From positions 57,660,001-57,724,000 of the forward strand of contig CM059427.1 in NCBI GenBank assembly GCA_030390025.1: a DNA stretch of 64,000 nt, given 5' to 3'. Each line of letters begins with the position of its first letter. Position 1 is the stretch's first letter. The position numbers and the translations under genes were made by a program. The stretch comes from Squalus acanthias. Its lineage: Eukaryota. The notes below the pieces were generated by a model, which made no database searches, was not told where the DNA came from, and saw only the letters and a list, made by a program, of their open reading frames with translations. Shown in pieces: positions 20,939 through 55,383 of this stretch.

Positions 20939-21419
20939 GGGCGCGGTGGGGGGCAGTGGAGGGACAGGAAGAGTTGTAAATAGCTCAGGTAAAATTATTT
21001 AATCAAGGGCAGCATCTGTGTTGCGGGTAGAATTGTAAATAAGCCAGCATCTGTGTTGTCGGCATGTGGCACCCTACTGCCAGGGCCAGACGAGGGTCTG
21101 TTCTTGTGTATGGGAGGGAGTTAATGTTGAGCATTCACTGTATGGGGACCCCACACAGCCTTCAACCAGTCAGTCCCTATTTGTACCACTTCCCCCCCAC
21201 CCCCACACAGTTTGATATATTGAAAGGAACATTCTGGAATCAAGTGCAATAGTGATCTTATCTTCAGATATTTGGGGATAAAATGTTTCCAATGGCAAAA
21301 AAAATTCTTACAAATGGAGCGCGTGGCAGCTGCCTTCCAGCTTGTGGGTCACCAGTTTCTTGGTGCTATTGCAAGTAGGCGCAGAAACATGACATTTAGT
21401 AAGTTTGTCTCAATTCCTA

Positions 21420-21651
21420 TCGTGAATCTTTGGAATTCTCTACCCCAGAGAGCTGTGGAGGCTGGGTCATTGAATATATTTAAGGTGGAGATAGACAGAT
21501 TTTTGAACGATGGGGGAGTCAAGGATTATGGGGAGCGGGCTGGAAAGTGGAGTTGAGGCCAAGATCAGATCAGCCATGATCTTACTGAATGGCGGAGCAG
21601 GCTCAAGGGGCCGAATGGCCTTCTCCTGCTACTATTTCTTGTGTTCTTATG
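21420..21651 (+). mobile_element. CR1 LINE 3' end
   Basis: Encodes VNLWNSLPQRAVEAGSLNIFKVEIDRFL. Same 3'UTR as 11820-12134. Confidence 0.92.
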
Positions 21652-33113: not shown

Positions 33114-33371
33114 CAGTACCATCTATTGAGACTGGTAGTGTCTCCCTGCTGTGCCAGGTGTGTTCTGTGCCGCAGTCCCTCTTCTCACTTTCCTCGTCCT
33201 CTCTTGGCAACAGTACTTGGTTCCCATGTGGGGAAGAATCGTGGTTGGGCATAGTCACTGGACTGGAATCTCGGTCCAGGGCGTTTATAATACTGTCATC
33301 TTCCGCAATGTGAAGCTTGTCTTCGTCATCTGTTTCTGAACCCGTATCCACTACATTATCATAGTTCAAAA
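33114..33371 (-). CDS. ZEB2: ZEB2 exon 3 equivalent (258 bp), acidic N-terminal region
   Basis: Acceptor ttttacag| at 33373-33372, donor |GTAAGT at 33113. Encodes [48 protein letters not shown]...SIDGT. Confidence 0.96.
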
Positions 33372-37645: not shown

Positions 37646-40534
37646 TTCTATTCCTTTTTTCCAAATTTCGGCCAAATTGTGACAAAGCATGGCGAACTCA
37701 AAAGGGCAGCCTTAAAAACGTGTTTAATTTGTTCTACTTCTCTGCCAAATTGTAGGAAAAAACAAGGTGAATGGATATTCAGATTTGCACCCCACTCCCC
37801 CCTCACTTCCCCATCGCTTCCTACATAAACAGGTTCTGCAGTAGGCGCTAGCCACAATCAGCATTATTATCTGCTTCTGTATTGTATCCTCTAACTTGTT
37901 TGATCAGGTACATGTCTGTAGGGTTGAGGGGGCAAGGTATTCTAGCGATGACTCTGAAGTATCCTTAGGCTTTGAGCCTGGGAAACAAAAAAGAAGGAAC
38001 TTTAGAAACAGCTGTTAGAATGTACATGTATGACAAATGAAATTTCTGGGGTTTAGGTCAGCAAATTGTGTTTGGACCTTTCAGAGGATATGGTCAAGCT
38101 CGTAGGCAGAACATACACTGAAGCTTGCATTCCTTTGTGCTAATTATTCATCAAGGAGGGTTAAAATTCAGCTTACATTACATTGATTAGGTTTCTCCGC
38201 TCACCCGCCCCCCACCTCACCATTTTCTCAATGAGTGTTGTTTGTCACTATATCTTTGGCCTGGAAATTGGGCTGTTGATTTCCACCTGATTGGTACAAA
38301 TGTAGTCCATCATCAGCTAACAGAAGAAGTAATCGAGTGAGGTAAGTCGCTCCTTCATTGTCTCCCATTCCCCAAGATGAAATGCTTCAATACGATCTGT
38401 TGCTCCATCTAAGGGCGCAGCTTAGAGCTTCCGAAACTCACCAATGGAGCTAAGAGAGTGTGAATGGCAGTCTGCGCTGGGCAGGTCCAGTTGATGCCAT
38501 TCCGTCTGCGAGGTCAGGTGCTCGTGCATTTCTGCTATTATGCTGCCACAGTAGCTATATAATAATGACGGCCCCTTACCAAAATATTTTGCACAGCTTA
38601 ATAATCCTGCGCGACCCAGACAACCATTTTGGTAAGCTGCACAACCACCAGAATGGCCCAGGCTTTCCAATAATGGCGGTGTCCAAATGACATCGCTGCT
38701 GTGCCACAAGTCGACTGCGCTCAGCAGCCAATGCAATGACGTTGACACTCAGCAAAGACGTCATCGCGCCAAACTGTTTCCTGACTTGCGATCAAGCAAA
38801 TTAGATGGCATGGGGGCATCAAGTGTGAAGATAACACATTAATTGCAGGCTTGTAAATAGAGCTGGCAGCTGATTCAATTGTCTTCAACTGAATGGAGTT
38901 TAAATAAATTTAACAGGGGTCAAATGCTGGGGAAAAAAAAAGTAAAAACAGAACGTTGTAAAGGTCTGATCTTCTTCAAAGTGTTAAACCTCCTGCCTTT
39001 ACAGATCATCATCTTTATGTGTCAGCCTGTGCAGCAATTCTTCTACCAGAAAACGCAGAAACTTTAAATTATGATAAAAGCATTTCCTAAATATATTCTT
39101 TCTCTACTAAATACTGAAAGAACAGATTGAAGTTTTTACATCAAAGGCTATCCTACTTTTTCTTTCTAAGTATTCCTATTCTCCAGTGGAGCTCTCAGTT
39201 GCTTTCTCTTGCACTCAGCACCATGCTTTATGCTCCCAAAGGGAACAGTACCTGAACTATTGGATCATCTACATTTCAAGACCTCGAGTCAATCCTGGGC
39301 TTAACGTTGATTAATGTGCATGCAAATGGCACCAGGCGGCACTGGAACGAAAGATCATTTTTTTTAGTGTATCAGTAGTAAAATCGCTTAAAGCTGACCA
39401 ACAAAACTCCCCGAAAAGCCCTTTCAATAAATTATCAATCAAACCCAGAATACTAATAATGATTTATAGTCCAGCCAGCTCTTCAGAGCTCTTTTGTTTC
39501 CACTAAGGCATAAAACATTACATCCAAGAGCAACAGTAATGAAAGTCACTCAGCCAGATTCGCCTTCAGCCTTTTCCTCAGTGAATCTCAACTTTCACTA
39601 GAACTTCCTTTACAAAATAGCTTATACAGGGGTGACTAAAATCAAACTGTACCTTTAACTGAAGAAATGACAGCCGAGTCCATAAGGAAATGCCTTACTG
39701 CAAATAAGCCCTCATGGTCCCATGCAGTTAGAGACCTGAAACGAACACCTTCCATCAGCAGCAAAACATTTTTTTTTTTTAAATCCGAAGTTCACTTCTG
39801 GTTGGGGCAACCTATACTCAAATGCCTTGTAATCCTCTCAGCTAAGAATCATATTTAGTTCTGGTGCTGGGAATTAACAAGAGCCTTCTCTGTCTGGCAC
39901 GGCTAACAGGCAATGTGTTGCTTTCTAACCCATCAGTTGCATGGGATGTAAATGGACATTCACCTGATTGGATGGAGGCAATTTGTCGTGCTTAAAAAAA
40001 AAGAGATTTGGAAGTATGTTAATCACCTGAATGGCTCAAAGGGGAGGTGTGCGCATTTGCAAATTGGAAATGAGGTCATTGTCTGCTAGGTTTCCAGGGG
40101 GTGTTGGGTGTTGTTAAACCGACAAAGATGCAGCTGACTGTATCGGGCTCACCTCACGACCCACCAGACTGGGCAAGAAGTGACAGAAGTGAAAGGCACA
40201 GAAGCAGACGCTCGATACATTACGGGGCCCGCTTTGTGGCAGGGAAAACAAGCACAAAAGCAGGAAATTCAGCGATGTGTAAATGGAACAATGAGAAGGG
40301 AGAAATTCAATAATTTCTGTCAGGAGGCAGTGACTGAAGCTGGACTTTAATTGAATTAAAGTCCCATTATTTGTTCAATCCCGAGCAACAGGCTAGCAAA
40401 GCAAGGTTTGCTCAACTGTTCTGAGGTACCACCTTTCCTCACCCCGTAATACTCAGCCATCTGTGCACACATCCACACATGTTCTATCTCACGACAAATG
40501 CACTGGGCCCCTATCAAGCAAGGACGCCAAAAAA

Positions 40535-40560
40535 ACACACACACACATACACACACACAC
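40535..40560. repeat. (CA)n microsatellite
   Basis: Read directly from the sequence. Confidence 0.9.
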
Positions 40561-40657
40561 AAAAGCTCTGCAGGCCTCCCTCAGGTCCAAAGAGCAGGGG
40601 AAAAAAAACTCTTTGCTTGTCACACAGGTGAGCCAGCAACCACATCCTATCAGCCTT

Positions 40658-40797
40658 NNNNNNNNNNNNNNNNNNNNNNNNNNNNNNNNNNNNNNNNNNN
40701 NNNNNNNNNNNNNNNNNNNNNNNNNNNNNNNNNNNNNNNNNNNNNNNNNNNNNNNNNNNNNNNNNNNNNNNNNNNNNNNNNNNNNNNNNNNNNNNNN
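40658..40797. other. Assembly gap (140 N)
   Basis: Run of N. Confidence 1.
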
Positions 40798-41950
40798 GCA
40801 GTCTGCCTTCCCCTACGTGATTTCGGCTGTCAGTTATTGGGCATAATTACTGTAACTAACCAAATACACACAAAACGTTGAGAATATAAAATTGTTACAG
40901 TTTCGCCTGTGTGCAAGCTGGTACTTTGCTGTCACAAAGGGGCCAATTTCTTTTTAGAAAATAAAGGTCTCTTTTTAGCTTCCTAGGGCTTTTAAAAAGG
41001 CAGCGACTAAATTAAGTATCTTATCTGCTCCCATGCATAATTTAATCAGTATTTTTGTTGCACTCCTCCCCTCGATACACTGGTGCAAACAGTGAGAAAG
41101 CTGGCAGATTTTGAACAGGTATGAAAAAAAAAGAATTTAAAAGAGGTAAGCACGTGGGCAGGGCATATACACAGCTCAAACTCGACATTTGCCATTAGCA
41201 AATTAGTTCGTAGTTTTTTCAAATTTGCTGCTGAAGATTCTCTCCACGGATGTATTTGCGAAGCAGCTGAAATCACTCATAAGCATTTACTAGGCCACAA
41301 AAATGTCTTTATTCATTAAATACCTACTGCACCATACCGATCCACTAGTTATAATTAACTAGGGCAACATCACCGCTGTTGCAAAAAAAAGAGCCCAGAA
41401 GAGTCAAATGTGACATTAGTTGCAACATCGTGATTGACTGGATGGTGTATTTCCATGTCTCATGTCAATGCAATTTAAATTACGGACTCATAACATGCAT
41501 TTACAAAGCAGCAGGAGAAAGTTTTCCATATAACTTTTTGGTGCTGACAGTGATCCTTTAATGTATTCAATTAGTTAAAACTTTTAAGTTCAAACATGTC
41601 TATCCAATCTTGAAATGCTCCCATTGCTTAACAAGTGCACATTTTAATAAAGATCATTTTTAGCATCATTTATACATTTATTAATTTTATCAGTTTAAAA
41701 TGTATTTTACTTCCCTCCCACCTCCCCTGCCTTTCTTGATCTCCTCAGGTTCAAACACGTGCACACCCGCACACACACAAACCCTGCAGGCCTCCCTGCC
41801 ATTACTGCAGCCTGCAAGGGCAGTCTTTAACCCTGTAACATAGCACATGGAGCACTGTGATATAATGTCACTAGGGGTTTTCAAGGCAGCATAGTGGAGG
41901 TTCCAGTTCCATGACTTTGAAAATGGTTCTTGGTGTGAACTTTTCCTCTT

Positions 41951-43055
41951 GGACTCCTCCACTGGCTCAGTGGGTGAAAGTACCATTTGGTATGCTACTG
42001 AATCACACAGACAAGGAGGGTAACAGCTTCCATCCCTGTTTTGTGCTGAGTTAGCTGATTCAGTCGGGGTGGACATAGGGGGCCACAATTGCTTTCAGTG
42101 CTCCTAGGCATAGGAGATACTGAGAAATGTAGACCTTGGAATGCATGTCCACAGATCCCTGAAGGTAGCATGACAGGTAGATAAGGTGGTTAAGAAGGCA
42201 TACGGGATACTTTCCTTTATTAGCTGAGGCACAGAATACAAGAGCAGAGAGGTTATGCTAGAACTGTATAAAACACTAGTTAAGCCACAGCTAGAGTACT
42301 GCATTCAATTCTGGTCACCACATTGCAGGCAAGATGTGATTGCACTAGAGGGGGTACAGAGGAGATGTACGAGGATGTTGCCAGGACTGGAGATTTTTAG
42401 CTGTGAGGAAAGATTGGATAGGCTGGGATTGTTTTCTTTGGAACAGAGGAGGCTGAAGGGAGACTTAATTGAGGTGTATAAAATTATGAGGGGCCTAGAT
42501 TGATGTGGATAGGAAGGACCTATTTCCCTTAGCAAAGAGGTCAATAACCAGGGGGTATAGATTTAAAATAATTGGTAGAAGGATTAGAGGGGAGTTGAGG
42601 AGAAATATTTTTACCCAGAGGCGGGTGGGGGCCTGGAACGCACTGCCTGAAAGGGTGGTAGAGGCAGAAACCCTCATCACATTTAAAAGTACTTGGATAT
42701 GCACTTGAAGTGTCGTAACCTGCAAGGCTATAGACCAAGAGCTGGAAAGTCAGTTTAGGCTGGACAGCTCTTTTTCGACCGGCGCAGACATGATGGGCCA
42801 AATAACCGCCTTCGGTGCTGTAAATTTTTATGATTCTTCTATGATTCTAAGAGAATTCAGCCGAGTTTCTATTCCCAATTGCTGCCCAATAGCCCCTACT
42901 GGAAAGTGTGAATGTTGGGTGACAACAGCATCTGGCTTCGTCGCGATATTTCATACAATTGTTTAGCTTGCTGACATTTTCTATCTAAGTCCAAACATTT
43001 AGAATGACCACTTGGGCAAGGCATCAGAGGGTGGTTGGTCTTTGTGGAACTTCAG
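41951..43055 (+). mobile_element. Old tRNA-derived SINE split by a CR1 insertion (halves ~41951-42117 and ~42850-43055)
   Basis: Head with A-box-like tggctcagtggg. Body breaks after cagtgctcctagg and resumes at aattcagccgagttt...cccctactggaaagtgtg...agaatgaccacttgggcaagg. Confidence 0.72.
42118..42849 (+). mobile_element. CR1 LINE 3' fragment (~730 bp)
   Basis: Encodes LYKTLVKPQLEYCIQFWSPH..LEGVQRR.TRMLPGL..EERLDRLGLFSLEQRRLKGDLIEVYKIMRG..RNIFTQR.VGAWNALP. tatgattc tail. Confidence 0.95.
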
Positions 43056-43103
43056 GCCGAAAAGCGTAAAAAAGGTGGCAGATGAGAGAATAGAAGACTC
43101 AAT

Positions 43104-43271
43104 GGGATAGATTTGTAACGTGCCTCCTGAGCGTAACACTGGCATACCGGATAGGCCGCCCATTATAGAAACCATTATTGAAAGCAATGGGAATGGAAAT
43201 CGGCCGGTTTCTATAACAGGCGATCAACAACACCAGTTTTACGGCCAGGCGGCAAGTTGAAAATCTACACC
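43104..43271. mobile_element. ~168-bp fold-back (whole-element palindromic) MITE
   Basis: gggatagatttgtaacgtgcctcctgagcgtaacactgg...ttatagaaacc pairs imperfectly with ggtttctataa...ccagtttacggccaggcggcaagttgaaaatctacacc. Centre is ccattattgaaagcaatgg. Confidence 0.75.
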
Positions 43272-43541
43272 TTAATGTTTTCAGATTTGATGTTATGAAA
43301 GATTTCCTGTTGGGGTCCATTCTTACTATAGGTTGAACATGGAAGTGTTGCCACTTGCACCGCTGTGGATCCACAACACCTTTTTGTACACCTGGAATCT
43401 TTACCCATGGATGTGTGGCTTTGCAAGAGTAATATATTGGGGAAACGTGTCTACTGTGGAGAAGATGATCTCACATGACACTCTCATAAGCTCCACAACA
43501 AATAAGAAAAATTTGACAAAAGTGTTTGAATGTGTGCTGAT

Positions 43542-43907
43542 CTGGTAATGTGGGCTACTCTCTGCTAATGTGGGCCACTCTCTCTACTGATGTGGGGCTT
43601 CTCTCTGAAGAAGTGCAACCACGCTCTCTGCTAATGTAGGGTTTTCCTCCAGTAATATGGGGCAGCGCTCTCTGCTGGTGTGGGGGCCACTCTCTATGCT
43701 AATGTGGGGCTGCTCTCTTCTAATGTGAGGCCGCTCTCCGCTAATGTTGGGCAGCACTCTATGCTAACATGGAGCTTTCTGCTGTTGACAGGGACCACTC
43801 TCTCTGCTAACTTGGGGCTGCTCTTGCTTGTTAATATGGGACCATGCTCCTTGGGAATGTGCGCCATGCTCTCTGCTAACTTGGGGCTGCTCTCTCTGCT
43901 AACATGG
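43542..43907. repeat. Degenerate minisatellite, ~21-23-bp unit (ctgctaatgtggggccrctctct)
   Basis: Roughly 16-17 imperfect tandem units are visible. Confidence 0.88.
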
Positions 43908-46577
43908 AATTAATTTTTGATGGCTGTTCTCAATTTACATCTCTTCCAAGTCCACCATCAAAAAAGACCCATCAGATGTGCTCGATGGGAGATGATGAAA
44001 CATATAGGGTAAGGTTTTAGTCCCAGACTCTCTTGCAAATGTCACTGTCCCTTTAAAGAGGCACCAGCCTTTCTGTTGAGTATTCTGCCAGTTTACAAAA
44101 ATGAAATAAGTATATAAGAAAGCATGGGCCAAAAATATACCATTTGGACCATCGAACCTCCTCCTGTAAATTCACAGATCCCAGGCTGAAAGAGAGCATG
44201 GGCCGAGAAATTGGCACTGTATGTTGTATCCCGATTTCCAACCCGCACTCTCGTCAAGCACAGCTCTCTGATGAGGAGCATGGGATCAGTGAACTTACCC
44301 TATGCAATCTATCTTATTACAGACACTTTGCCACCTATTTAATCTCCTGAGGTAAAGTTCTGTATGAATACTCCTCAATGTCTAAAGGTAATCAAGTGAA
44401 ACTCCATAATATTTGTCGAAGTAAGGCAAAATGGCATCCACCTTAATGTCTAAAAATACAGAGTCAGTAATGTGCGATTTCTGGGATCCGTTAATCTGCT
44501 CAACTTCCAACCAAATCCAACATTAAAGATCTTAAAATCCATTATCTGCTGTGAGAATTGTTACAGTACCTCCTTCTGATCCTTGATTTTATTTCCATTT
44601 CATTTCACTAACCTATGTGCTGCCTAAAAAACAAGCTCAGCACACGTCCGGTTAGTTGGTTAAGTTTAATTCAAGCAAAGTATCTAATATCAATGAGTAG
44701 ATTCACTGGAATGAGACCTTGTGCTGTTTAGGGAGAAGGCACTGCAGTGTTGGATTTTTATGTTGTTGTACTGTTCTCTGCTTATTTTTTGTTTAAGATA
44801 AAAATATATTTTTCCCCACTAGCACATCTGGGTAATACTCAGGGAAAGCTTATTTTCAAGTCTGCTTCTGAGTTAATAGCTTTCACCTAACTTTCATCTG
44901 CCCTTTCACACCTGCTGTATCGTTTCTCTCAACTGGTCACAATGAACGTTTTTTCTAGCTATCCCAAATGGTTCCACACCATCCCGCAACACTTGCCTAA
45001 AACACTGGCATGAGCATTCGCTCGCAGCGCCTTGTGCAGACATTTTTAGAAATCTGGTTGTTATGGATATAACTGTTCAAAAGTTGAAACACTTATCTGT
45101 GGTCTTTCTCTGAAGCCTGGCCTCTTACGCCACTCGGATTCAGATCCCTTTCCTCTTAGTTTCAGCTGTTCTGGGAGGCCTGTATGGCCCGATGCCACCA
45201 GCAGCCTGCTGAACCCTATCTCTCAGGTACTGGAATCTGCTGACGCAGACAGTAAACTGGCGCTCATCAGCTAAACACAGGGTGTGGCAAAAGTCAGGCA
45301 GTTAGTCACACTGTACTGCTATCAGCTTCCTTTCTCTTGTAGGGGAGGCTTGACTTTTTTCACGTGTGCAAAGCAGTCAATACTATTACTAGGAGTCCCC
45401 TCCCCCCCTACATCTTCTAAGATATGAACATTTGGCAGATCACTAATGCTTCCAACTTACTGTCCCATTTTGGTATCAGTGAATAAATAAGTGTAAAAAA
45501 TATCGAGAACCATATATTGATGTATTCAGAGTGTATTTTTTATGTATATATATATATATTCACAAGTTTAAACAAGGTCTAACTTTCAAATGGGTGATTG
45601 GACTATCAAATAGTGATAAAGATTGAGGAAAAGAAGTCTAGCTTATTCTTGAAACAGCCTTCTTACAACAGTACACTGGTGAGAGGGAGAGAGAGAGAAA
45701 AAAGAGCCAAGAAGTGTGCTTAATATAGCAAGTAACTTGCTTGTGACAAGGCAGTAAAAATTCCATTAGAATAGCATGAACAGACCCTTTTCGCTTGGTA
45801 TCCCATATACTGAGCACAGCAAAAATAATAAGATAACTTACATTTTTCAATTATTCATTTATAGCACCCCATAAATGCACTACTCTGCATAACTTTAACC
45901 TCATGCTTCAAATTCAATCCACTTGCTAAATATATATTTAGTAAAGACTAATTTATATGCTAACACATCAAGCATATGTTGAACACTGTTTCAACACAAC
46001 ACAGTTCCACACAGCTTGAGTTATAAGTAAAGAATGTTTCAAAGAGTAATTTAATAGCAGTTGCTTCCTTTTACCATACAAACTAAACGAGAACTGGAGG
46101 ACTGGAAGTTTTGCTTTTGCCAGTCTTTAGTTTGCTAAAAAATCTGTAACACAATACCTAATTAAAATTGTGAACGCTCCCAGCATTTTGTTCCCACAGA
46201 TTCCATTTACCTTCCTGGAAATGTCAGAATATCAGCGACACAGAGCTGGAAAACAATCTGAATTATTCAAGGTTGTTTTGCATTCCTTTTGGGAACTATT
46301 TAATGAAGCTTCTTGATTTGACCGTAGTGTGTTAATGTATCCACGTTACAAAAGGCAATGGCTACCGCAGCGTTAACATTGTCCAAAATTTGCTTTGAAC
46401 TGCCACGTAACACACAACTGGAGATAATCACTTCCTTTGGAAGTCCGGACAAGGTCAATCTAGATTTCAAATTGCTACTTCCCAATTTGTTGGCAATCAG
46501 CGAGGCAGGTAGAACGGTCTGTATCATGACAATATCTCCATGACAGTGCTCTTACATGATCAGTTGGATTGCTGCGT

Positions 46578-46775
46578 GATATAAATGTGAGAAGTCGCAC
46601 AACACCAGGTTATAGTCCAACAGCTTTATTTGAAATCACAAGCTTTCGGAGCGCTGCTCCTTCGTCAGGTGATTTCAAATAAAGCTGTTGGACTATAACC
46701 TGGTGTTGTGCGACTTCTCACTTTTGTCCACCCCAGTCCAACACCGGCATCTCCGCATCATGGATATAAATGTGA
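46578..46775. mobile_element. Penelope-like element remnant (inverted + direct pseudo-LTR end, tail) with 13-bp TSD
   Basis: TSD gatataaatgtga at 46578-46590 and 46763-46775. Perfect 53-bp inverted arms at 46587-46639 and 46669-46721. Hammerhead core followed by AATAAA, as is typical of PLE termini. Tail at 46722-46762. Confidence 0.88.
46637..46671 (-). ncRNA. Minimal type I hammerhead ribozyme motif (PLE-associated)
   Basis: Minus strand reads CAC-CUGACGA-A-GGAGC-AGC-GCUCC-GAAA-GC-UU-GUG: intact catalytic boxes, 5-bp helix II, palindromic minimal helix III. Predicted cleavage between 46640 and 46639. Confidence 0.8.
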
Positions 46776-49180
46776 TGAGCCAAAACCGTTTTTTTTTTAA
46801 GTTATCATAAAGTGCCAACATTTATGGAAACAGTCATTTTATTGCTCCCCTCCCCTGCCAAGAGTTGGCACACTCACCCACTTGAGGGCCTGCCTTTGTC
46901 TGCTTTGCTCCCGAATCAGATACCTTCCAGGGACCTGGCCCAGCAATCTCTGGGTCAACCTTTAACCAGTTTGTGGTACTGAGCCAGGGGAGTGATGTCT
47001 CCAAATTAAACTGACATATGTGTCCAAAAAGAACAGAGTCTTCCAGTCACAAAGTCCTCTATTTCAGGTAGGGGCCACAGGTTTGCCTGGCTGTGAATAC
47101 GACTCAATATGTGTCTTCATCTAATTAAAGGGACTACCCTTAAACTTTGCTAAAATAGTATTTTTGCTGTTGTGACTCACACAATTTCTATGGAGCATTA
47201 CATTCCAGGACTGCTTTGGGGACTTGGCCATTATTTTCAAGACTTAAACATTTGTACAAATGACGCACTGGGGAGATGGTTTCCAGGTGATATACACTTA
47301 CCAGATTAAAAGAAAACGGAAGCTGGGTCAGAGCTTGCAACCCAATACTTTTAAAAGTAAACTTTCATTTGTTTGCCTTTTGGAGTGGGAGGGGAAAACG
47401 ACAAAAAAAATTCACTTATATATATTTGCAAAAAATAAAAACTATGAATTAAAATCTTTGAAAATATACATCCTAATGCAATGAATCTCGAGTTACTATT
47501 TCATCACAAAGAACAAAGTTACCCCCATATATATATACATATATATAGATAGATAGATAGCACCAAATTCCTCCTTTTGAACGACTGTGTTTATGTGGCC
47601 ACAATTGATAAGGTGCTGCACTACTTGTATCACAAAACAATCAAAATCAGGTCTTTGGAAACATTCCAAAACAAATTGTTCCAGAACAGCCTTTTTGTTC
47701 CCTTTCCTGGAAATATTCCTGATCGAGTTTAAAGACAATAGGAAAATCAGTGTGAAGACACATTCTGAACAGCATCTGTGCTTTGAGCTGTGCCGTAAGC
47801 TGCCATAAGAGGATTGTAAGGAGGTCAAGGGGACCTGCTCTCTCAGGGGCTGAAAGATCAGAGAAAATGCTGTCCAGGTGAGGCCCAGGCCCCTGTTCAG
47901 GCTCATCTGAGTTTTTATTCAAATGGAAATGAGAGTGTAAAACACATCTGTTCCCCTCCTGTGCCAGAACCCTTGTCACCTGAATAGCATCCCCACCAGG
48001 TATCAACGAGATGCAGGAAATGGCTTTCCTTTTCATCCCACCTCTCCGCAATGAGTAAATGAGTGCCCGACAAGAAGGCCCAGCTTCCCCATGTCTCTTC
48101 AATCTACTACTTTTTGATCAGGAGCACGAAAGACTGAATATGTGTGAATGCTTAGGTACCTGGGGTATGGAAAGTGGTAATTAGCCCAGCAGGATAATTG
48201 ATGTGTAGATTACGCAGAGAACAAATGCTTTGACTTGTTTGTTCTTCTTAACACTCCGAAACAGATTCTTTTTTTTTATTAATGAACACTTACCTACCTG
48301 GTTAAACTGATGAGAAACCATGCTGTACATTAAATGGAAGGCTGCTCATCACTCTGCTCTGCTGTGCTGCCCTGGTGTGTTCTTTTTCTCTTCTATAACT
48401 GAATGCATATTACCTTCCAATGCACACCGCCCCCCCACCCCCCACCCCCCACCTTCTCCCCATAAGTCTCAACCAACTGAATTAAAAGTTTGACGACCAC
48501 AATGTTGCAGGTTTCAAAACTGGGAGGATTCCCTTTTTATCTCATTATGTGTCTCCACTGGCAGGTTCTTGTGCTCTTCGTCATTCAATCTTAGCCTTAT
48601 TTTCAATCATCGCTGTGTATTTGGGAAATTATAAAATGTGACCCACACGTGCTGCTTTGAAACTTTACTTTTCACAAGGTACTCCAGCCGAGGAGGGGGT
48701 TGGGAGAAATCTAACTCCTCGAGTGATCCCCACGGAGCTTCCAATCTGCTCTTAAGCCAAGGAAATGGGAAGCAGCGAGGATGCAAAGTGTTAACGCAGT
48801 ACGCAACTTATTTCAGAAAAGACTCAAAAGCCAAGTACCTTATTGCATTCCCATCCCCACCTCAAGAAAAATAATTAAACCGTTGTTGCAAAAGAGATCA
48901 AAAAAAATACCATCAAAACAAACCCAATAAAAAGCAATGCCACGTTTATTAATCCTTTGCCCTCACTTGGGACAAAACATTCCACTGAAATGAATGTTTT
49001 TGGGAGGGGGGAGGAGGTCAGAAACATCTCCAACAAGGCAGTTCTGTTTAGAAGCAGCAAGAAAATAAAGAAGACTCTGCCACTTTAAATGTGCTTTTTT
49101 TTAAAAAAAAGACTCCAGTTCAATATTGATTTGAATAGGTATTAGATCAAAACCGGTACAGATGGTTACCAGGAGCAGTT

Positions 49181-49366
49181 GAGCTTCTGATAAAGCAGTC
49201 TAAACAAAATCTCCTGTGCACACATGCACAAAAGGGCTGCTTCATTTTTAACTAACTTGTTATTGAACCTGTCTGAGGTGGTTCCAAGCAAGCTGGGTTA
49301 AATTCAATTGGATTCTTTTTGCACATGTGCACACAGGAGACTCAATTCAGATAAGCTTATCAGCTC
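49181..49366. repeat. Decayed ~186-bp palindrome
   Basis: Three nested inverted blocks around a ~10-nt loop at 49270-49279. Confidence 0.75.
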
Positions 49367-52300
49367 CCACGCCCTTGCATTTCTCACTAGAAATAATCTT
49401 TTTTTTTTAAAAGTAGCACTGTCGACATAAACAATGCATGTTAACATTCCAACCCAAACTTTATTGATGCAAGGGGTTGAATTTCTGATGCTTCCTAAAG
49501 CTTGAGGTCTGCTGGAAGTGGAACCGTTGCCACTGTGAACACAAGGGCTAGGCTGGTGTTAAACTTGAGCTGAACAGGAACTCCTCCTGAATCTGTTTTC
49601 TCTGTTAAGGGTCTCTCAGGCAAAATTACTTTCAAAGAGTAAAAAAATAATAACTGAGAGTACTGTTTCAGAGTAATTTTTGCACAGAACATATAAAAAC
49701 ACTGGTATTTGAAGAACTTTCGATGGCTTTACTCCTATTGCTGCACAGGGTTTTGGTAACGTTTGGAAACAAGGATAAATTAATATTACGTTTTGGTCTG
49801 GGTGACCAAAAGAGAAAATGTATTTTTGGCTGTTTTGTTTTAGTACCAATTACATGACTGACTCCATCAAAAAATACAATGAAAAGCATTACAACCAAAA
49901 ATATGATTTTCAAAATAATTGGATGAATACCAATATAATAGAACCTCACTCACGAGGACCAATGCTCGATTACAACAGTCATCCAGAGTGCCGTAAAGCC
50001 CCGCACTCTGGCAAGAGTTTTAAAAGTGCCAAGTTGGAACTCAAAACAAACTTCTGAGCAAAATGCCTATTTAGTTCGGTACAGGTCTTCAGGTACACAC
50101 TGAACACTGATGAGTTCAGCTGTTCGTTCATGGTGCTCTAACAAGCATCAATTGCAAAACATTTAATGGATGATATTAGGATAGAGGCACACTTCTAATG
50201 GAAGGTGGCACTGAAGGGGTCAACCACAGCATGTTCGCAGATTAATATAACAGGAACTTAGTGAGATGAATTCTAGCATAAAAGATCAAACCTCTAATAA
50301 CTGGAGCGCGCTCAGAACGCACTGGATGTACCACAACAGTATGCACCATTACATAAACACAGCTAACAGAAGTTTCAATCTTCCCCTATAGGTAATGCAA
50401 GGGTTAATTCTTTCTCTGATTAGCATTGTTTTGATAGCCTAAAGCAAGTCAAATATTTGGATAGAACTGATTATGACTCCAGAATATTTCAGATTTTCCC
50501 AACATGTCATTATTGCAAGATTAAATACCACATTTTATATTCCTCCCCCCCCCTTAAGAAAAAGACAGCATTTTATTAGTGTGGCTGAATATGTCTGGCA
50601 CTAGGTACATCGGCAGCAAGACATTATTCACCTACTCATCACATAAGAAGCAAGCAAACAATTGCTGAAGCTAATTTCTTAATTAGCTGTGCTCTGGCAG
50701 TAATGATTGCAGATTGTGTCAACTAAAATCTGTTTGGATTCTGTAAATTGGAGTCCGACAAGCATCCCGTTCCGCCTAAAACCTGATAACTCTCACCCCC
50801 CTGTCTTTTGTTTTTCCTTCCAGCCTTCTTCCTGTCGCCATCTCAGTATTTAATCTGACACCGTCAGGCAGCTAGAATGTTTTATTCTTCCTCTCCCCCT
50901 CAAAGAGGAAAAAAAAAGGAAAAGCGAAACATTTACGTGGGTACAGGAGAGCTGGCTGCTTCTTTCAAACACAGGAAACCAAGAAAAACCTAGTGGCGAC
51001 TTACAAACAAGAAGAGCTCTTTCTCAACAGCTTATCAAGACTGTGTTTTAAATGCATGAACATATTGCTCTTAAAGTTCAGTACAGTTGCTCTACCAATA
51101 CTGGCATCCATTCAGCAGTCAATCTCCCATCAGAAACCACAGCCCCTAACCCTAACAGAGATAAAGGTTATTTGCCTCACCTATCCGTGAAACCAGATGG
51201 CATTCAATTTTTTTCCCCACAAAGTATCTTTTCCACTTTATTCAATTACTCTGATTACTTTGACATTTGGAACAAAACTGGAAGAAAATATTTTTTTTCC
51301 AAAAAAGTGGTGTGATACATGTTGAATTTTAGCACTTTTATATAAAAAGAACAATCCAGCGTGTGTAGGCAATGGACGGGTTGCCTGTCTTGGTGTCTCC
51401 ATAATCCTTTTATCCAAACAAATATGCTGCTTTTATAACCTGCCCGTGATCATAAAATAAAAGCTAACATCACACAGTGAAAGTAACAGGAAAGAAGCCA
51501 ATTATGTTCTTCATCTATCGAGGAAACAGGGATCCGAGCAAGATGTGTTGACGCTCTTTGGAGTGTCTCAAAATTTGAAATACAAATCAATGAAAAAAAT
51601 AAAAGCTTCAAAGAAAACAAATGCCACATTGAAAGTGAATGTTGAGATTTCAGTAGCACACATCAAAAGCACCTACATTTACAGTTAAAAGGAAAATAGA
51701 GTCAAATGTGGATACGTAGATTTGTTACTGGCTTCCAGTTTCAGAATTTGCAGACTGGTTTCAAACACAAGAGCCTGGAGACTGCAATATCTTGTCAGAT
51801 GCTATCCCACTCCCACTCCCCTCCCCTCCCTTTTACCACCCACCTACCCACAGAAGGGATTAATGTCCAGACCAAAGCCTAGTCCCTTGAAAATAAAACA
51901 CACACCTTCAGCAAAATAAAAGAGTTGAGGTAAAACCTGTGTCCAATTAGCAGAAAGGGGAATCTATTTCAGAAAGAGAAGATTTTTTTTTGTCCTCATG
52001 TGACCAGCAAGCTGTTTTCATTTCCTGTCAGAAACCCTCGGACACTAAGAAGTTACCTGACTCAGCTTCTTGTAGGAATCAAATTCAGTTGGAGATAACA
52101 GCTAATCATTTGTCACCGTGAAGCAATTCCCTGAAATCTGAGGGAAAACCCACAGCTGCAATCTGCAGTCCTGTCAGATCAGAAGAAATTACATTCTGTG
52201 GTGACTAACCTCTGCTCTCCGAGCACTAACAACAGCAGTTGACTCTATCAAAACAGAATATTATGAACCTGTAGCACTTTGAACCACAGTGAGGCAGCTC

Positions 52301-54809
52301 ATTCCAATAACCACCCCCCCCCCCACCCCGCCACCCCAACCAAAGGCCACATACTGTTGCCTAGCCTCGGCCTCAATTTTCGCCACCAAGTGCAGTTTGT
52401 TGCATTTTGTATCTACATAACTATGTGCACATAATTTACATACTAACTGAAAAGCATTTGTCAGCTGAAGTCATGCATTTGCCATCTAGAACATTTAGTG
52501 TGAAAAGAGGAGGTAGCACTCTTAGTTGAGAACAGTTCTGTTTTATACATGCAACAGTGAATCTGGGAATACAGCCATATCACATTTTCCATACTTAATT
52601 TCTTTATTCTCGGCCTCGAAGACAGCGTGATTCTGTTTGCAGCATCGGCTGGGAAAGTACAATATTGCTAGTGTTTGAAACTGGGTTAGCAAGTGAATTT
52701 TGTTGTGTCAGTAATTCATTAAGTCAGTGTCATCTACTACACTAGTAATCACATGTCAGTAATATGATATTTAACCTAATACTGTAAGAAGGGACTTGTT
52801 TGTCATGTCACTACTATTATAACATGTTTAAAACAAGGTCCAGGATGGAGTAATTAGCTTTATATGGAACCTTATCTAATACAGTATATGCCTGCAGCTT
52901 CTTCAGTTCCTTAGCATAAGTACAGCACACTTCTAACGCGCATATTTCGGGTGGGGAGGAGATGGATGCTGCTACTTATAGCTAACAGGACATAAATTTA
53001 TGTCACAGGATACTACAGGATGATAAGGCACACTTTTCCCCCTCCTCCATTGCCTGGCCTGCTTTGCTTTTGTGCTTTTTCATATACGCCTTAATGTCAG
53101 TATAATTTTTTGACTTGTGGAGAAACAAATACATATCAAAGGCAGAATGACATGAAAGAGAAGAGATCGGGGCACTATTTCCAATCCTTTGCATTCACAT
53201 GGCTCAACACATTGGCAAAACTCAAATAAATGTGGTAATCAACTATTCACCTTAATAGAAGTTGCGCTATTTTAAATGATGTTCAAGTTCTTCCCTCCCC
53301 CCCCCGCCAAAACCTTTTTTTAATGACATATCCCAAATATTTTCTGCCACAGAATATAAGAAAACATGTTTTCAGAAATAAAAGCCAAGTTCCTCCAAAA
53401 CACAATTTACTGCTCCTCTTATCTTTCTGTTATTTGGGGGAACCCACACACTAATCCCTCGAATCATTTATCATACTTTTCTTTTACCTGATCCAGGCTT
53501 ACTCCCAGACTCTACAAACACACAGAGCATTTTTCAAGAGCAGAAGAAAATTGCCCACTCTTCTGAAATTTAAGCAGCCAATGCAGGAAAGATTCCCCAG
53601 GAGTAGTCAGATTTTCTCAGGTTTAACTAAATAATTTATGCATACTTTCAGTTTGGCATGATGAAGCAATTTTAGCCTTTACAAACCACAACTCCTCAAG
53701 AGGCAGAAAAGAGTCTTGTTCCTGCTCAGTTAAATAATTTAAGCAGCAAAGGTGGAAGAGCTCTGTACATTTTTCCCCCTTTTTTGGCCAACCAGGAGAG
53801 AACATATAGGTGCCAACAAAAGCTGAACTAGAGCATAAATCTACTCCCCCTTGAAAAATCTTTGTCACTTGGAAGCACACAGGATTTGAAGAATGGGTAA
53901 AAACGGCACATTGAGTCAACGCCCCTCCTGGCCCTACGTCATGTTTCTGTACTTGCCAAAGGGAGAATTTGCTTTCCCTCTTGCAGATTCACGATGACAT
54001 GTTTGTAAAAGAGCGTGGGACTGAGGCAGAAGCCCCTTCAGTCAACAAGCAGGGCATCTTACAGCTTGAACATTTACAGTGATTGCTCTCACGAGCCTCA
54101 GGCCAGATAAAAATTAGAAAAAACGTTATTTATTGTCAGAGGACTGTAAAACAAAATGCAGGCCAGAAGGAAAGAAGAAGAAAAAAACAAATAACCTACC
54201 ACCAAAAATACTTTCACATATTGTAACTGTACAAATTGAAGCAGTTAGACATGCCAATCAAATGGGTTCTCTCCAAGTATTACAGAACTTCTAAATGATT
54301 TACACCCACATGTTGTTCTCACTCCTGAGACAATCGTAAAGTGATATACCAAAGTTCAGGTGGAACTGGACTGTTCAGTCCGGCTCTAGTTGATTGGGTC
54401 AAGAAGCACCCCAAAGCTTAAAGCCGCTCTGTTCATGTTTCTTGTAAAATGGCAAATTTTCCCTGTTCCTTGAGAAATCTGAACCCAAGCTTGGAGCTGA
54501 GCCCAGCTTTCACTTGCACTATTGATGTTGACACAGCAACTTCAGAGCTTCATGTCTGGTTTCAAGTTCATTTGGGTGGAGTCTGTTCAAATTAAACTGA
54601 AGCAAACTGGATATTTGAACCATTGCTAGCTGGTCCTAGTCTAGTTTAAAGTAGAGGCGTGATGTGACTCTGGTACATCTCACCCTGGACATGGCTCTGG
54701 GATGTCTTGGCAATAGGTACTGGTGCAGACATCAGAGCTCAGAATCTGGCCACAATGAAAACCAAGACAATCAATCAAAAGTGCTGTGACATCACATCAC
54801 TATCATGAT

Positions 54810-55383
54810 CATAGAATAATAGAAACTTACAGCACAGAAGGAGGCCATTCAGCCCACCATGCCTGTGTTGGCTCTTTGAAAGAGCAGTCGTGCTTAGTCC
54901 CACATCCCCGCTTTTTGTCCATAACCCTGAAAGTTCCTCATCCTCAAGTGCCTGTCCAACTCCCTTTTAAAATTATTGATGGAATCAGCTTCCACCACCT
55001 TTTCAGATCGAGCGTTCCAGATCCTGACAACTCTCCGAGTGAAAAAAATTCTCCTCATCTCCCCTCTAGATCTTTTGCCAATTATTTCAAATCTATAGGG
55101 CTGGATTTTGTCTTGGGGTCGGGTTGGGGTCGTGTAATCCGCATTTCGTGTTCCCCGCCCGACTCCAGATTAATGTGGATGCCTGATGCAATTTTCACTT
55201 AATTGGGCAATTGAGTTGGAGCATGTGGAAACCCATGAACTAATTAGTGTTTTCGGTCTGAAAGTCGCCTCTGATGACGTCATCATTGCTGACTGCCTAG
55301 TCCTAGTCTCAGAGACTGTTGGGGTGAGAGAGGACCTGCCTGGCTTTTGATGTGAGTGGCCCTGGATGCAAAAAGGGGGTGTG

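What the first reader, a model, noticed from the sequence alone, without database searches (positions are those of the whole stretch)
46587..46721. Hammerhead ribozyme clamped by a perfect 53-bp helix I on the ZEB2 pre-mRNA strand
Seen: the minus (ZEB2 sense) strand reads ...UUUGAAAUCAC-CUGACGA-A-GGAGC-AGC-GCUCC-GAAA-GC-UU-GUGAUUUCAAA.... The flanks (46587-46639 and 46669-46721) are a mismatch-free 53-bp inverted repeat, and the 29-nt loop between them is exactly the catalytic core. Known: Penelope-like elements carry minimal type I hammerheads with a palindromic, nearly absent helix III that cleave mainly as dimers; an extra A between A9 and G10.1 is tolerated; and intronic hammerheads exist in amniote genes. 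Inference: the inversion turned a short helix I into a very stable one, so every ZEB2 intron 2 transcript would carry a pre-folded hammerhead core. It might cut the intron at CUU (46640/46639), possibly only on dimerisation through AAGCUU.
Basis: partly seen in the sequence, partly recalled or inferred. Interest (0 to 1): 0.85.

Follow-up and report, generated by a model that had tools for sequence, protein, structure and literature searches.

The report
Palindromic Penelope stump with hammerhead core
This hairpin in a ZEB2 intron is a recent 176-base mirror-image stump of a Penelope-like jumping gene, one of about 15,000 exact copies of the same ribozyme core in this genome, and it is likely an inert by-product of insertion rather than a switch that cuts ZEB2 RNA.

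Summary
Observation confirmed: a perfect 53-bp inverted repeat encloses a 29-nt minimal type I hammerhead core on the ZEB2-sense strand of the long intron after the start-codon exon. It is part of a 176-bp insert (46587-46762) with a 13-bp target-site duplication and a 41-bp tail. A related organism has the empty site. The core occurs 14,765 times exactly, the same clamped junction 38 times. The source is a Penelope-like element with an intact 891-aa RT-endonuclease ORF (Neptune-type linker). Its insertions are head-to-head: 46 of 49 short pairs end one arm at each of two fixed sites. Most arms start just upstream of the core; about 1% start at the cut site. The clamp is the junction formed where the native 4-bp helix I gives microhomology, and it arose repeatedly. 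Helix III cannot close in a monomer, and the active dimer needs helix I to pair between molecules, so the clamp should hinder cleavage. No cleavage was tested. The scan found the same kind of stump before on other genomes. New member of a known kind; interest low.

The parts
46578..46590 (+). Left copy of the 13-bp target-site duplication; its last 4 bases also match the start of the short arm (microhomology)
   Evidence: a single copy remains at the empty site in organism C (record 25 joins 46577 to 46763)
46587..46639 (-). Short arm: element sense on the minus strand, from the predicted cut site to the first fixed 3' end (site A, +53); 3' strand of the clamped helix I
46640..46668 (-). Minimal type I hammerhead core: C3-A9, bulged A, 5-bp helix II with 3-nt loop, G12-A14, A15.1-GC-U16.1, U17; predicted cut between 46640 and 46639
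   Evidence: numbering from general knowledge and PMC4209133
46669..46672 (+). 4-bp junction microhomology: the native helix I, readable as part of either arm
   Evidence: native context and in full-length copy L176; overlap counts
46669..46721 (+). Long arm, palindromic part: element sense on the plus strand, starting at the first base after the predicted cut site; its complement is the 5' strand of the clamp
46722..46762 (+). 41-bp tail between the two fixed 3' ends, ending on the ATG that opens the element's ORF (site B, about +93)
46763..46775 (+). Right copy of the 13-bp target-site duplication
33114..33371 (-). Next ZEB2 coding exon downstream (context: 13.2 kb from the insert)

Best explanation
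The feature is a young head-to-head insertion stump of a Penelope-like retroelement, and its hammerhead is likely inactive here. Shown: target-site duplication, tail, empty site in a relative, tens of thousands of related arms, and full-length source elements with the same core in their terminal repeat. Inferred mechanism: the element protein nicks both target strands about 13 bp apart. Each 3' end primes reverse transcription on element RNA, one at site A and one at site B 40 nt further on. The cDNAs run toward the RNA 5' end, which is likely a start site 7 nt before C3, and are joined head-to-head. Where the join uses the 4-bp self-complementarity of helix I, the core ends up as the loop of a perfect palindrome. 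In the ZEB2 pre-mRNA this would fold as a stable hairpin that cannot close helix III and resists the strand swap needed for a dimer, so it would be spliced out uncut. Its likeliest effect is that of any long intronic duplex.
For: Copy number: 14,765 exact 32-nt cores; 60,142 exact arms reaching the cut site; 38 exact clamped junctions. The 30 best copies show short direct repeats of 8-16 bp at their ends, and flanks differ except in two duplicated pairs. Source element: intact 891-aa ORF in L177, RVT_1 E 2.8e-9, GIY-YIG-like C-terminus. L176 shows inverted piece + repeat + ORF + repeat. Pairing: 46 of 49 short head-to-head pairs have one site-A and one site-B end; about half would be expected if ends were independent. 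Arm starts: 84 of 148 at -41..-27, 21 at -36, 3 at +1. Clamp by microhomology: 8 of 18 pairs from loci chosen for a +1 start overlap by 4-5 nt, against 6 of 49 unselected pairs. Independent origins: 26 clamped copies carry several haplotypes, both arm arrangements (23 and 3), and 4 have arms that differ at a subfamily site. Young and unconserved: empty site in organism C, flank 13 differences in 578 nt. Energetics: active dimer -208.7 against -211.2 for two monomers; the best dimer (-218.5) swaps helix II and is not the catalytic fold. Papers: a single minimal motif showed no self-cleavage (PMC4209133); two internal initiation sites bound the tail, both strands are cut and extended, and unprocessed RNA is the main template (PMC11167929); inverted truncated copy plus tail at one end is the standard layout (PMC8557442, PMC3846280).
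Against: No cleavage assay and no usable RNA data; inactivity is inferred. Arm starts at the cut site are 2-3 times the neighbours (385 against 127, 295 and 172 at -1, +2, +3), and about half of the examined +1 pairs lack a 4-nt overlap, so some cleaved templates are possible. The Anolis hammerhead does cleave when the element protein is present (PMC11167929). The start-site reading is inferred from a TATA-like and an initiator-like motif (consensus recalled) and from clustered ends. The extra G before -36 (16 of 21; 78 of the first 100, counted by eye) is weak support for a cap, since G also precedes 29 of 51 starts at other nearby positions. The arm sample was chosen for one exact core and comes from the first 20 Mb of one contig. 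PMC3846280 explains head-to-head junctions by self-priming on an antisense template instead.
Confidence: 0.86

Rival explanations
1. The clamped hammerhead does cut the ZEB2 intron in vivo, by pairing with a second family transcript or with help from the element's protein, and may affect splicing or termination.
For: The core is intact and helix II is pre-folded; it lies on the sense strand; thousands of potential partner copies exist; protein-assisted cleavage was shown for the Anolis element (PMC11167929); conserved intronic hammerheads exist in amniotes (PMC6155905, passages).
Against: Helix III would be one pair closed by a 2-nt loop. The dimer needs helix I between molecules, costing 9-17.5 kcal/mol to open 4-10 pairs. 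The sense-strand copy ends at +53 and lacks the tail and ORF start; in Anolis the first 172 nt of the ORF were needed for activity with the protein (PMC11167929). U17 sites are slow (recalled, not tested). The insert is absent from a close relative.
Confidence: 0.07
2. The long arm begins at the cut site because its template was a self-cleaved RNA, so this insert and a few hundred others are fossils of hammerhead cleavage in the germ line.
For: The long arm starts exactly at the first base after U17. Genome-wide, 385 arms start there against 127, 295 and 172 at flanking positions. Some +1 arms join directly to target DNA or with extra letters.
Against: Only 385 of 60,142 arms (0.6%; about 1.1% after the two-letter filter). 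Helix I microhomology gives the same junction without cleavage and accounts for 8 of 18 examined pairs. The controls are impure (subfamily variants, small deletions), and so is the +1 set (about 3 of 30 loci are not truncations). No RNA-seq ends were found at the cut site in Anolis (PMC11167929).
Confidence: 0.15
3. The 176-bp palindrome is itself a mobile unit (MITE- or retrozyme-like) copied from one master.
For: 40 of 40 scored matches are near-full-length copies at 94-100% identity.
Against: The query selects for that shape. Unselected copies have many different junctions. Clamped copies occur in both arm arrangements, on several haplotypes and with discordant arms. They are not tandem repeats as non-LTR retrozymes are (bioRxiv 10.64898/2026.07.22.740005, part 1).
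Confidence: 0.05

Closest known systems
Insertions of endonuclease-bearing Penelope-like elements: pseudo-LTR, adjacent inverted 5'-truncated copy, 30-40 bp tail at one end, target-site duplication (PMC8557442, PMC3846280)
   Same: Head-to-head layout, tail on one arm, 13-bp duplication, hammerhead in the repeat, TATA- and initiator-like motifs in the repeat of full copies.
   Different: Both arms are cut down to the last 50-95 bp, and the junction falls on helix I. I did not find that junction class described in searches.
Minimal type I hammerheads of metazoan Penelope-like elements (PMC4209133; Lunse et al., title only seen in a reference list)
   Same: Conserved core, unpaired base between 9 and 10.1, G10.1-C11.1, palindromic 15.2-16.2, native helix I of 4 bp.
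   Different: Helix I is extended to 53 bp by the inversion; helix II is 5 bp.
Poseidon of Anolis carolinensis (PMC11167929)
   Same: Two fixed 3' ends that bound the tail; intact hammerhead in most inserted arms, fitting an unprocessed template.
   Different: Here the ORF starts about 93 nt after the cut site rather than inside the ribozyme, and the protein has a CX4CXXC linker, which marks Neptune or Nematis rather than Poseidon (PMC8557442 passages).
Conserved intronic hammerheads of amniotes, such as RECK (PMC6155905, passages)
   Same: Type I hammerhead on the sense strand of an intron.
   Different: Those are conserved across classes; this one is a minimal core that is missing in a close relative.

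Membership tests
Penelope-like element (endonuclease-bearing) insertion | [quoted passage not shown] | tested here: met
   L177:2251-4926 is an 891-aa ORF; RVT_1 above cut-off. GIY-YIG: Pfam gave no hit; Atlas neighbours at 0.95-0.96 carry PF01541 on 18-31% of members; VYLIRC..C...WYIGET and DKG motifs are visible in the sequence.
Penelope-like element (endonuclease-bearing) insertion | Pseudo-LTRs bearing a hammerhead on both sides of the ORF | tested here: met
   L176 has the same core at about 1477 and 4584, either side of the ORF.
Penelope-like element (endonuclease-bearing) insertion | Inverted 5'-truncated copy and a 30-40 bp tail at one end | tested here: met
   Window 46587-46762; 46 of 49 short pairs have the tail on exactly one arm.
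Penelope-like element (endonuclease-bearing) insertion | Target-site duplication of variable length and an empty site | tested here: met
   13 bp here, 8-16 bp in 30 copies; empty site in organism C.
Neptune clade | CX2-5CXXC linker between RT and endonuclease | tested here: met
   CHGNLCKTC in L176 and L177; shared with Nematis according to PMC8557442.
Neptune clade | RT phylogeny with reference Neptune elements | not tested
   No reference set was fetched.
Minimal type I hammerhead | CUGANGA and GAAA boxes, bulge after A9, G10.1-C11.1, palindromic loop 3, UH site | tested here: met
   Sequence. Among 194 cores, recurrent non-CpG variants fall at N7, loop II, 10.3 (A to G opposite U) and H17; the sample is biased, about 100 arms were chosen for an exact core.
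Minimal type I hammerhead | Match to an Rfam hammerhead model | tested here: not met
   No hammerhead family at E<=1 in 40000-53000; likely because those models expect a helix III (inference).
Minimal type I hammerhead | Self-cleavage | not testable with these tools
   Needs a bench assay.
Domesticated intronic hammerhead | Conserved at the orthologous site | tested here: not met
   Absent in organism C, whose flanks are about 98% identical.
Non-LTR retrozyme | Head-to-tail tandem units each with a hammerhead | tested here: not met
   One core in the window, head-to-head arms.

The most novel reading that the evidence does not exclude
The long arm starts at the hammerhead cut site because a minority of templates are self-cleaved in the germ line. 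The few hundred arms that start there would be the first in vivo footprint of cleavage by a minimal Penelope hammerhead, and the thousands of stumps a readable record of a two-site, two-strand priming mechanism.
Probability: 0.15. Interest if true: 0.55.

Novelty: new member of a known kind. Interest (0 to 1): 0.2.

Why it matters
As a ZEB2 regulator it likely does not matter. The family is useful for an open question, how Penelope-like elements insert and what their hammerhead does. This genome holds over 60,000 near-identical arms. They show near-obligatory use of one initiation site per end (46 of 49) and mostly uncut templates, which matches in vitro work on the Anolis element and can be mapped genome-wide. 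If the small excess of starts at the cut site survives proper controls, it would be in vivo evidence of cleavage.

Tried and rejected
Rfam scan: no hammerhead hit, only generic hairpin hits below gathering score; a miRNA reading was rejected. Locus-specific inversion after insertion: rejected, since the same shape recurs with different flanks. Assembly artefact: rejected, though only contigs and no raw long reads were available. Expression or cleavage from RNA runs: run X6 is only guessed to be RNA, belongs to another organism, and its contig stops at 46576; no conclusion. Pfam found no GIY-YIG or HTH_animal hit on the source ORF. The start-codon exon was not in the window or the next 10 kb and was found further out. 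A cap-derived G at -36 was considered and left as weak. The -2 control for arm starts was not run. Lunse et al. (PMC5785218) is not held, so its dimer data are known to me only through a review passage. A search on cleavage-triplet rates gave only a listing. No supplements were read; those of PMC4209133 and PMC11167929 may show related motifs or junctions.

Full report
Observation. The arms 46587-46639 and 46669-46721 are a perfect 53-bp inverted repeat, and the 29-nt loop is a minimal type I hammerhead core on the minus strand. The region folds at -112.3 kcal/mol, z -17. The gene on the minus strand is ZEB2. Its start-codon exon lies near extended coordinate 116,050 and the next exon at 33371-33114, so the hairpin is on the sense strand of an intron of about 82.6 kb. 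Rfam has no hammerhead match here at E<=1.

The real unit. The insert runs from 46587 to 46762. It has a 41-bp tail beyond the right arm and a 13-bp target-site duplication at 46578-46590 and 46763-46775. Contigs from two samples of the same organism cross the left junction, and one of them also the right. A contig from a related organism C joins 46577 to 46763, which is the empty site with one copy of the duplication; its flank differs at 13 of 578 letters. The insert is therefore young and not conserved.

The family. A search of the 3.7-Gb own genome gave 573 candidates; all 40 that were scored are near-full-length copies of the palindrome at 94-100% identity. The 30 fetched show short direct repeats at their ends, and two pairs share flanks and are duplications. 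The exact 32-nt core occurs 14,765 times, the exact clamped junction 38 times, and an exact 32-nt arm starting at the cut site 60,142 times. The ATG at the end of the tail opens a long ORF. L177 holds an intact 891-aa ORF with RVT_1, a DKG motif, a CX4CXXC linker and a GIY-YIG-like end; Pfam did not score the endonuclease and the Atlas gave it as a lead. L176 shows the whole layout: inverted piece, repeat with hammerhead, ORF (with a stop), repeat with hammerhead. By the linker it is Neptune- or Nematis-type, not Poseidon (PMC8557442, passages); no tree was built.

How the clamp arises. In native context helix I is 4 bp, formed with probability 0.16-0.42. I mapped 148 arms in the loci around the first 100 exact cores of contig C1. 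Their 3' ends fall at two places, about +50 to +59 (site A) and +90 to +94 (site B) from the cut site. Of 49 short head-to-head pairs, 46 have one end of each kind and 3 have two A ends. Their 5' starts cluster before the core: 84 at -41 to -27 (21 at -36), 48 further upstream, 9 inside the core, 3 at +1 and 4 beyond. Position -36 has an initiator-like motif 30 nt after a TATA-like motif (consensus recalled; similar motifs are reported in rotifer elements, PMC3846280, passages, whereas the Drosophila promoter is TATA-less, PMC2377424, passages). Genome-wide, 1,019 arms start at -36 under a filter that drops part of that class. G precedes 78 of the first 100 (counted by eye) and 16 of 21 in the sample, but also 29 of 51 starts at other nearby positions, so a copied cap is only a weak inference. 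This picture matches the Anolis work, where both target strands are cut and extended, two internal initiation sites bound the tail, and unprocessed RNA is the main template (PMC11167929, parts 1-2 of 4). I infer priming from both nicks and head-to-head joining of the two cDNAs. Self-priming on an antisense template is the published alternative (PMC3846280). When the join uses the 4 bp of helix I, the core becomes the loop of a perfect palindrome. The 26 clamped copies examined (two pairs are duplicates) fall on several haplotypes, 23 have the core on the short arm and 3 on the tail arm, and 4 have arms that differ at a subfamily site. The clamp was made many times and is not copied from one master.

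Were templates cleaved? Arms with two non-native letters before the start number 385 at +1, 127 at -1, 295 at +2 and 172 at +3. That is 0.6% of 60,142, or about 1.1% after the filter. All four sets are impure: many +2 rows look like a subfamily variant, and about 3 of 30 fetched +1 loci are not truncations. Among 18 head-to-head pairs in the +1 loci, 8 overlap by 4-5 nt, against 6 of 49 unselected pairs. Microhomology explains much of the excess. The rest leaves a small share of cleaved templates open.

Would it cut ZEB2 RNA? The core is genuine: among 194 cores, recurrent non-CpG variants sit at N7, loop II, 10.3 (keeping a G-U pair) and H17 (biased sample). But helix III is one pair around a 2-nt loop, and a single minimal motif showed no self-cleavage in vitro, with low activity in dimers (PMC4209133, parts 1-2 of 4; review passage PMC6765202). 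In a type I dimer, helix I pairs between the two units (from the topology). For the clamped RNA that dimer scores -208.7 kcal/mol against -211.2 for two monomers, the best dimer (-218.5) swaps helix II instead, and opening 4, 6, 8 or 10 core-proximal pairs costs 9.0, 10.9, 15.6 or 17.5. The native form shows the same ordering of energies but has only 4 pairs to open. The clamp therefore likely traps the monomer. Against this, the Anolis ribozyme cleaves with its protein, so activity is not excluded. Conserved intronic hammerheads of amniotes (PMC6155905, passages) differ in being conserved.

Novelty. The layout is standard for these elements. Searches did not turn up the helix I junction class or a count of A/B end pairing, but the library lacks most subscription papers, and I read no supplements. 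The retrozyme preprint (part 1 of 5) concerns tandem units, which this is not. Two earlier scan notes describe the same kind of stump on other genomes; I looked them up after reaching this reading.

Verdict. Real hairpin, real ribozyme motif, ordinary origin. New member of a known kind, interest 0.2.

Noticed in passing
L149, L153, L156, L159 (G000 C1): After the element's ATG the ORF runs only about 70-80 nt and then joins repeat sequence again, giving short internally deleted units; candidates for non-autonomous, retrozyme-like derivatives.
   Followed up: no
L031-L060, L091-L145: 46 of 49 short head-to-head pairs have one site-A end and one site-B end, and several have arms with different hammerhead variants (such as L033, L053, L059), suggesting two templates in some insertions.
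   Followed up: partly
G000:C1:7561376 and 7562630 (L054, L055): Two insertions 1.2 kb apart with different target duplications share one junction type: one arm from -38, the other from +1, a clamp with a 5-nt bulge.
   Followed up: partly
L015/L016, L020/L021, L043/L044: Pairs of insertions with identical flanks, so copy counts include some segmental duplicates.
   Followed up: no
L191 (extended coordinates about 188,886 and 191,694): Two more family arms with the tail lie about 73-76 kb beyond the ZEB2 start-codon exon, on the plus strand.
   Followed up: no
window 43541-43916: Degenerate array of 20-23 nt repeats.
   Followed up: no
window 49187-49363: Imperfect inverted repeat, 47-nt arms, 70% complementary, 83 nt apart.
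   Followed up: no
window 21224-21556, 42228-42503, 54894-55169; flanks of L031, L052, L060: Frames that look like the 3' ends of LINE reverse transcriptases (resemblance recalled); several family insertions sit inside such fragments.
   Followed up: no
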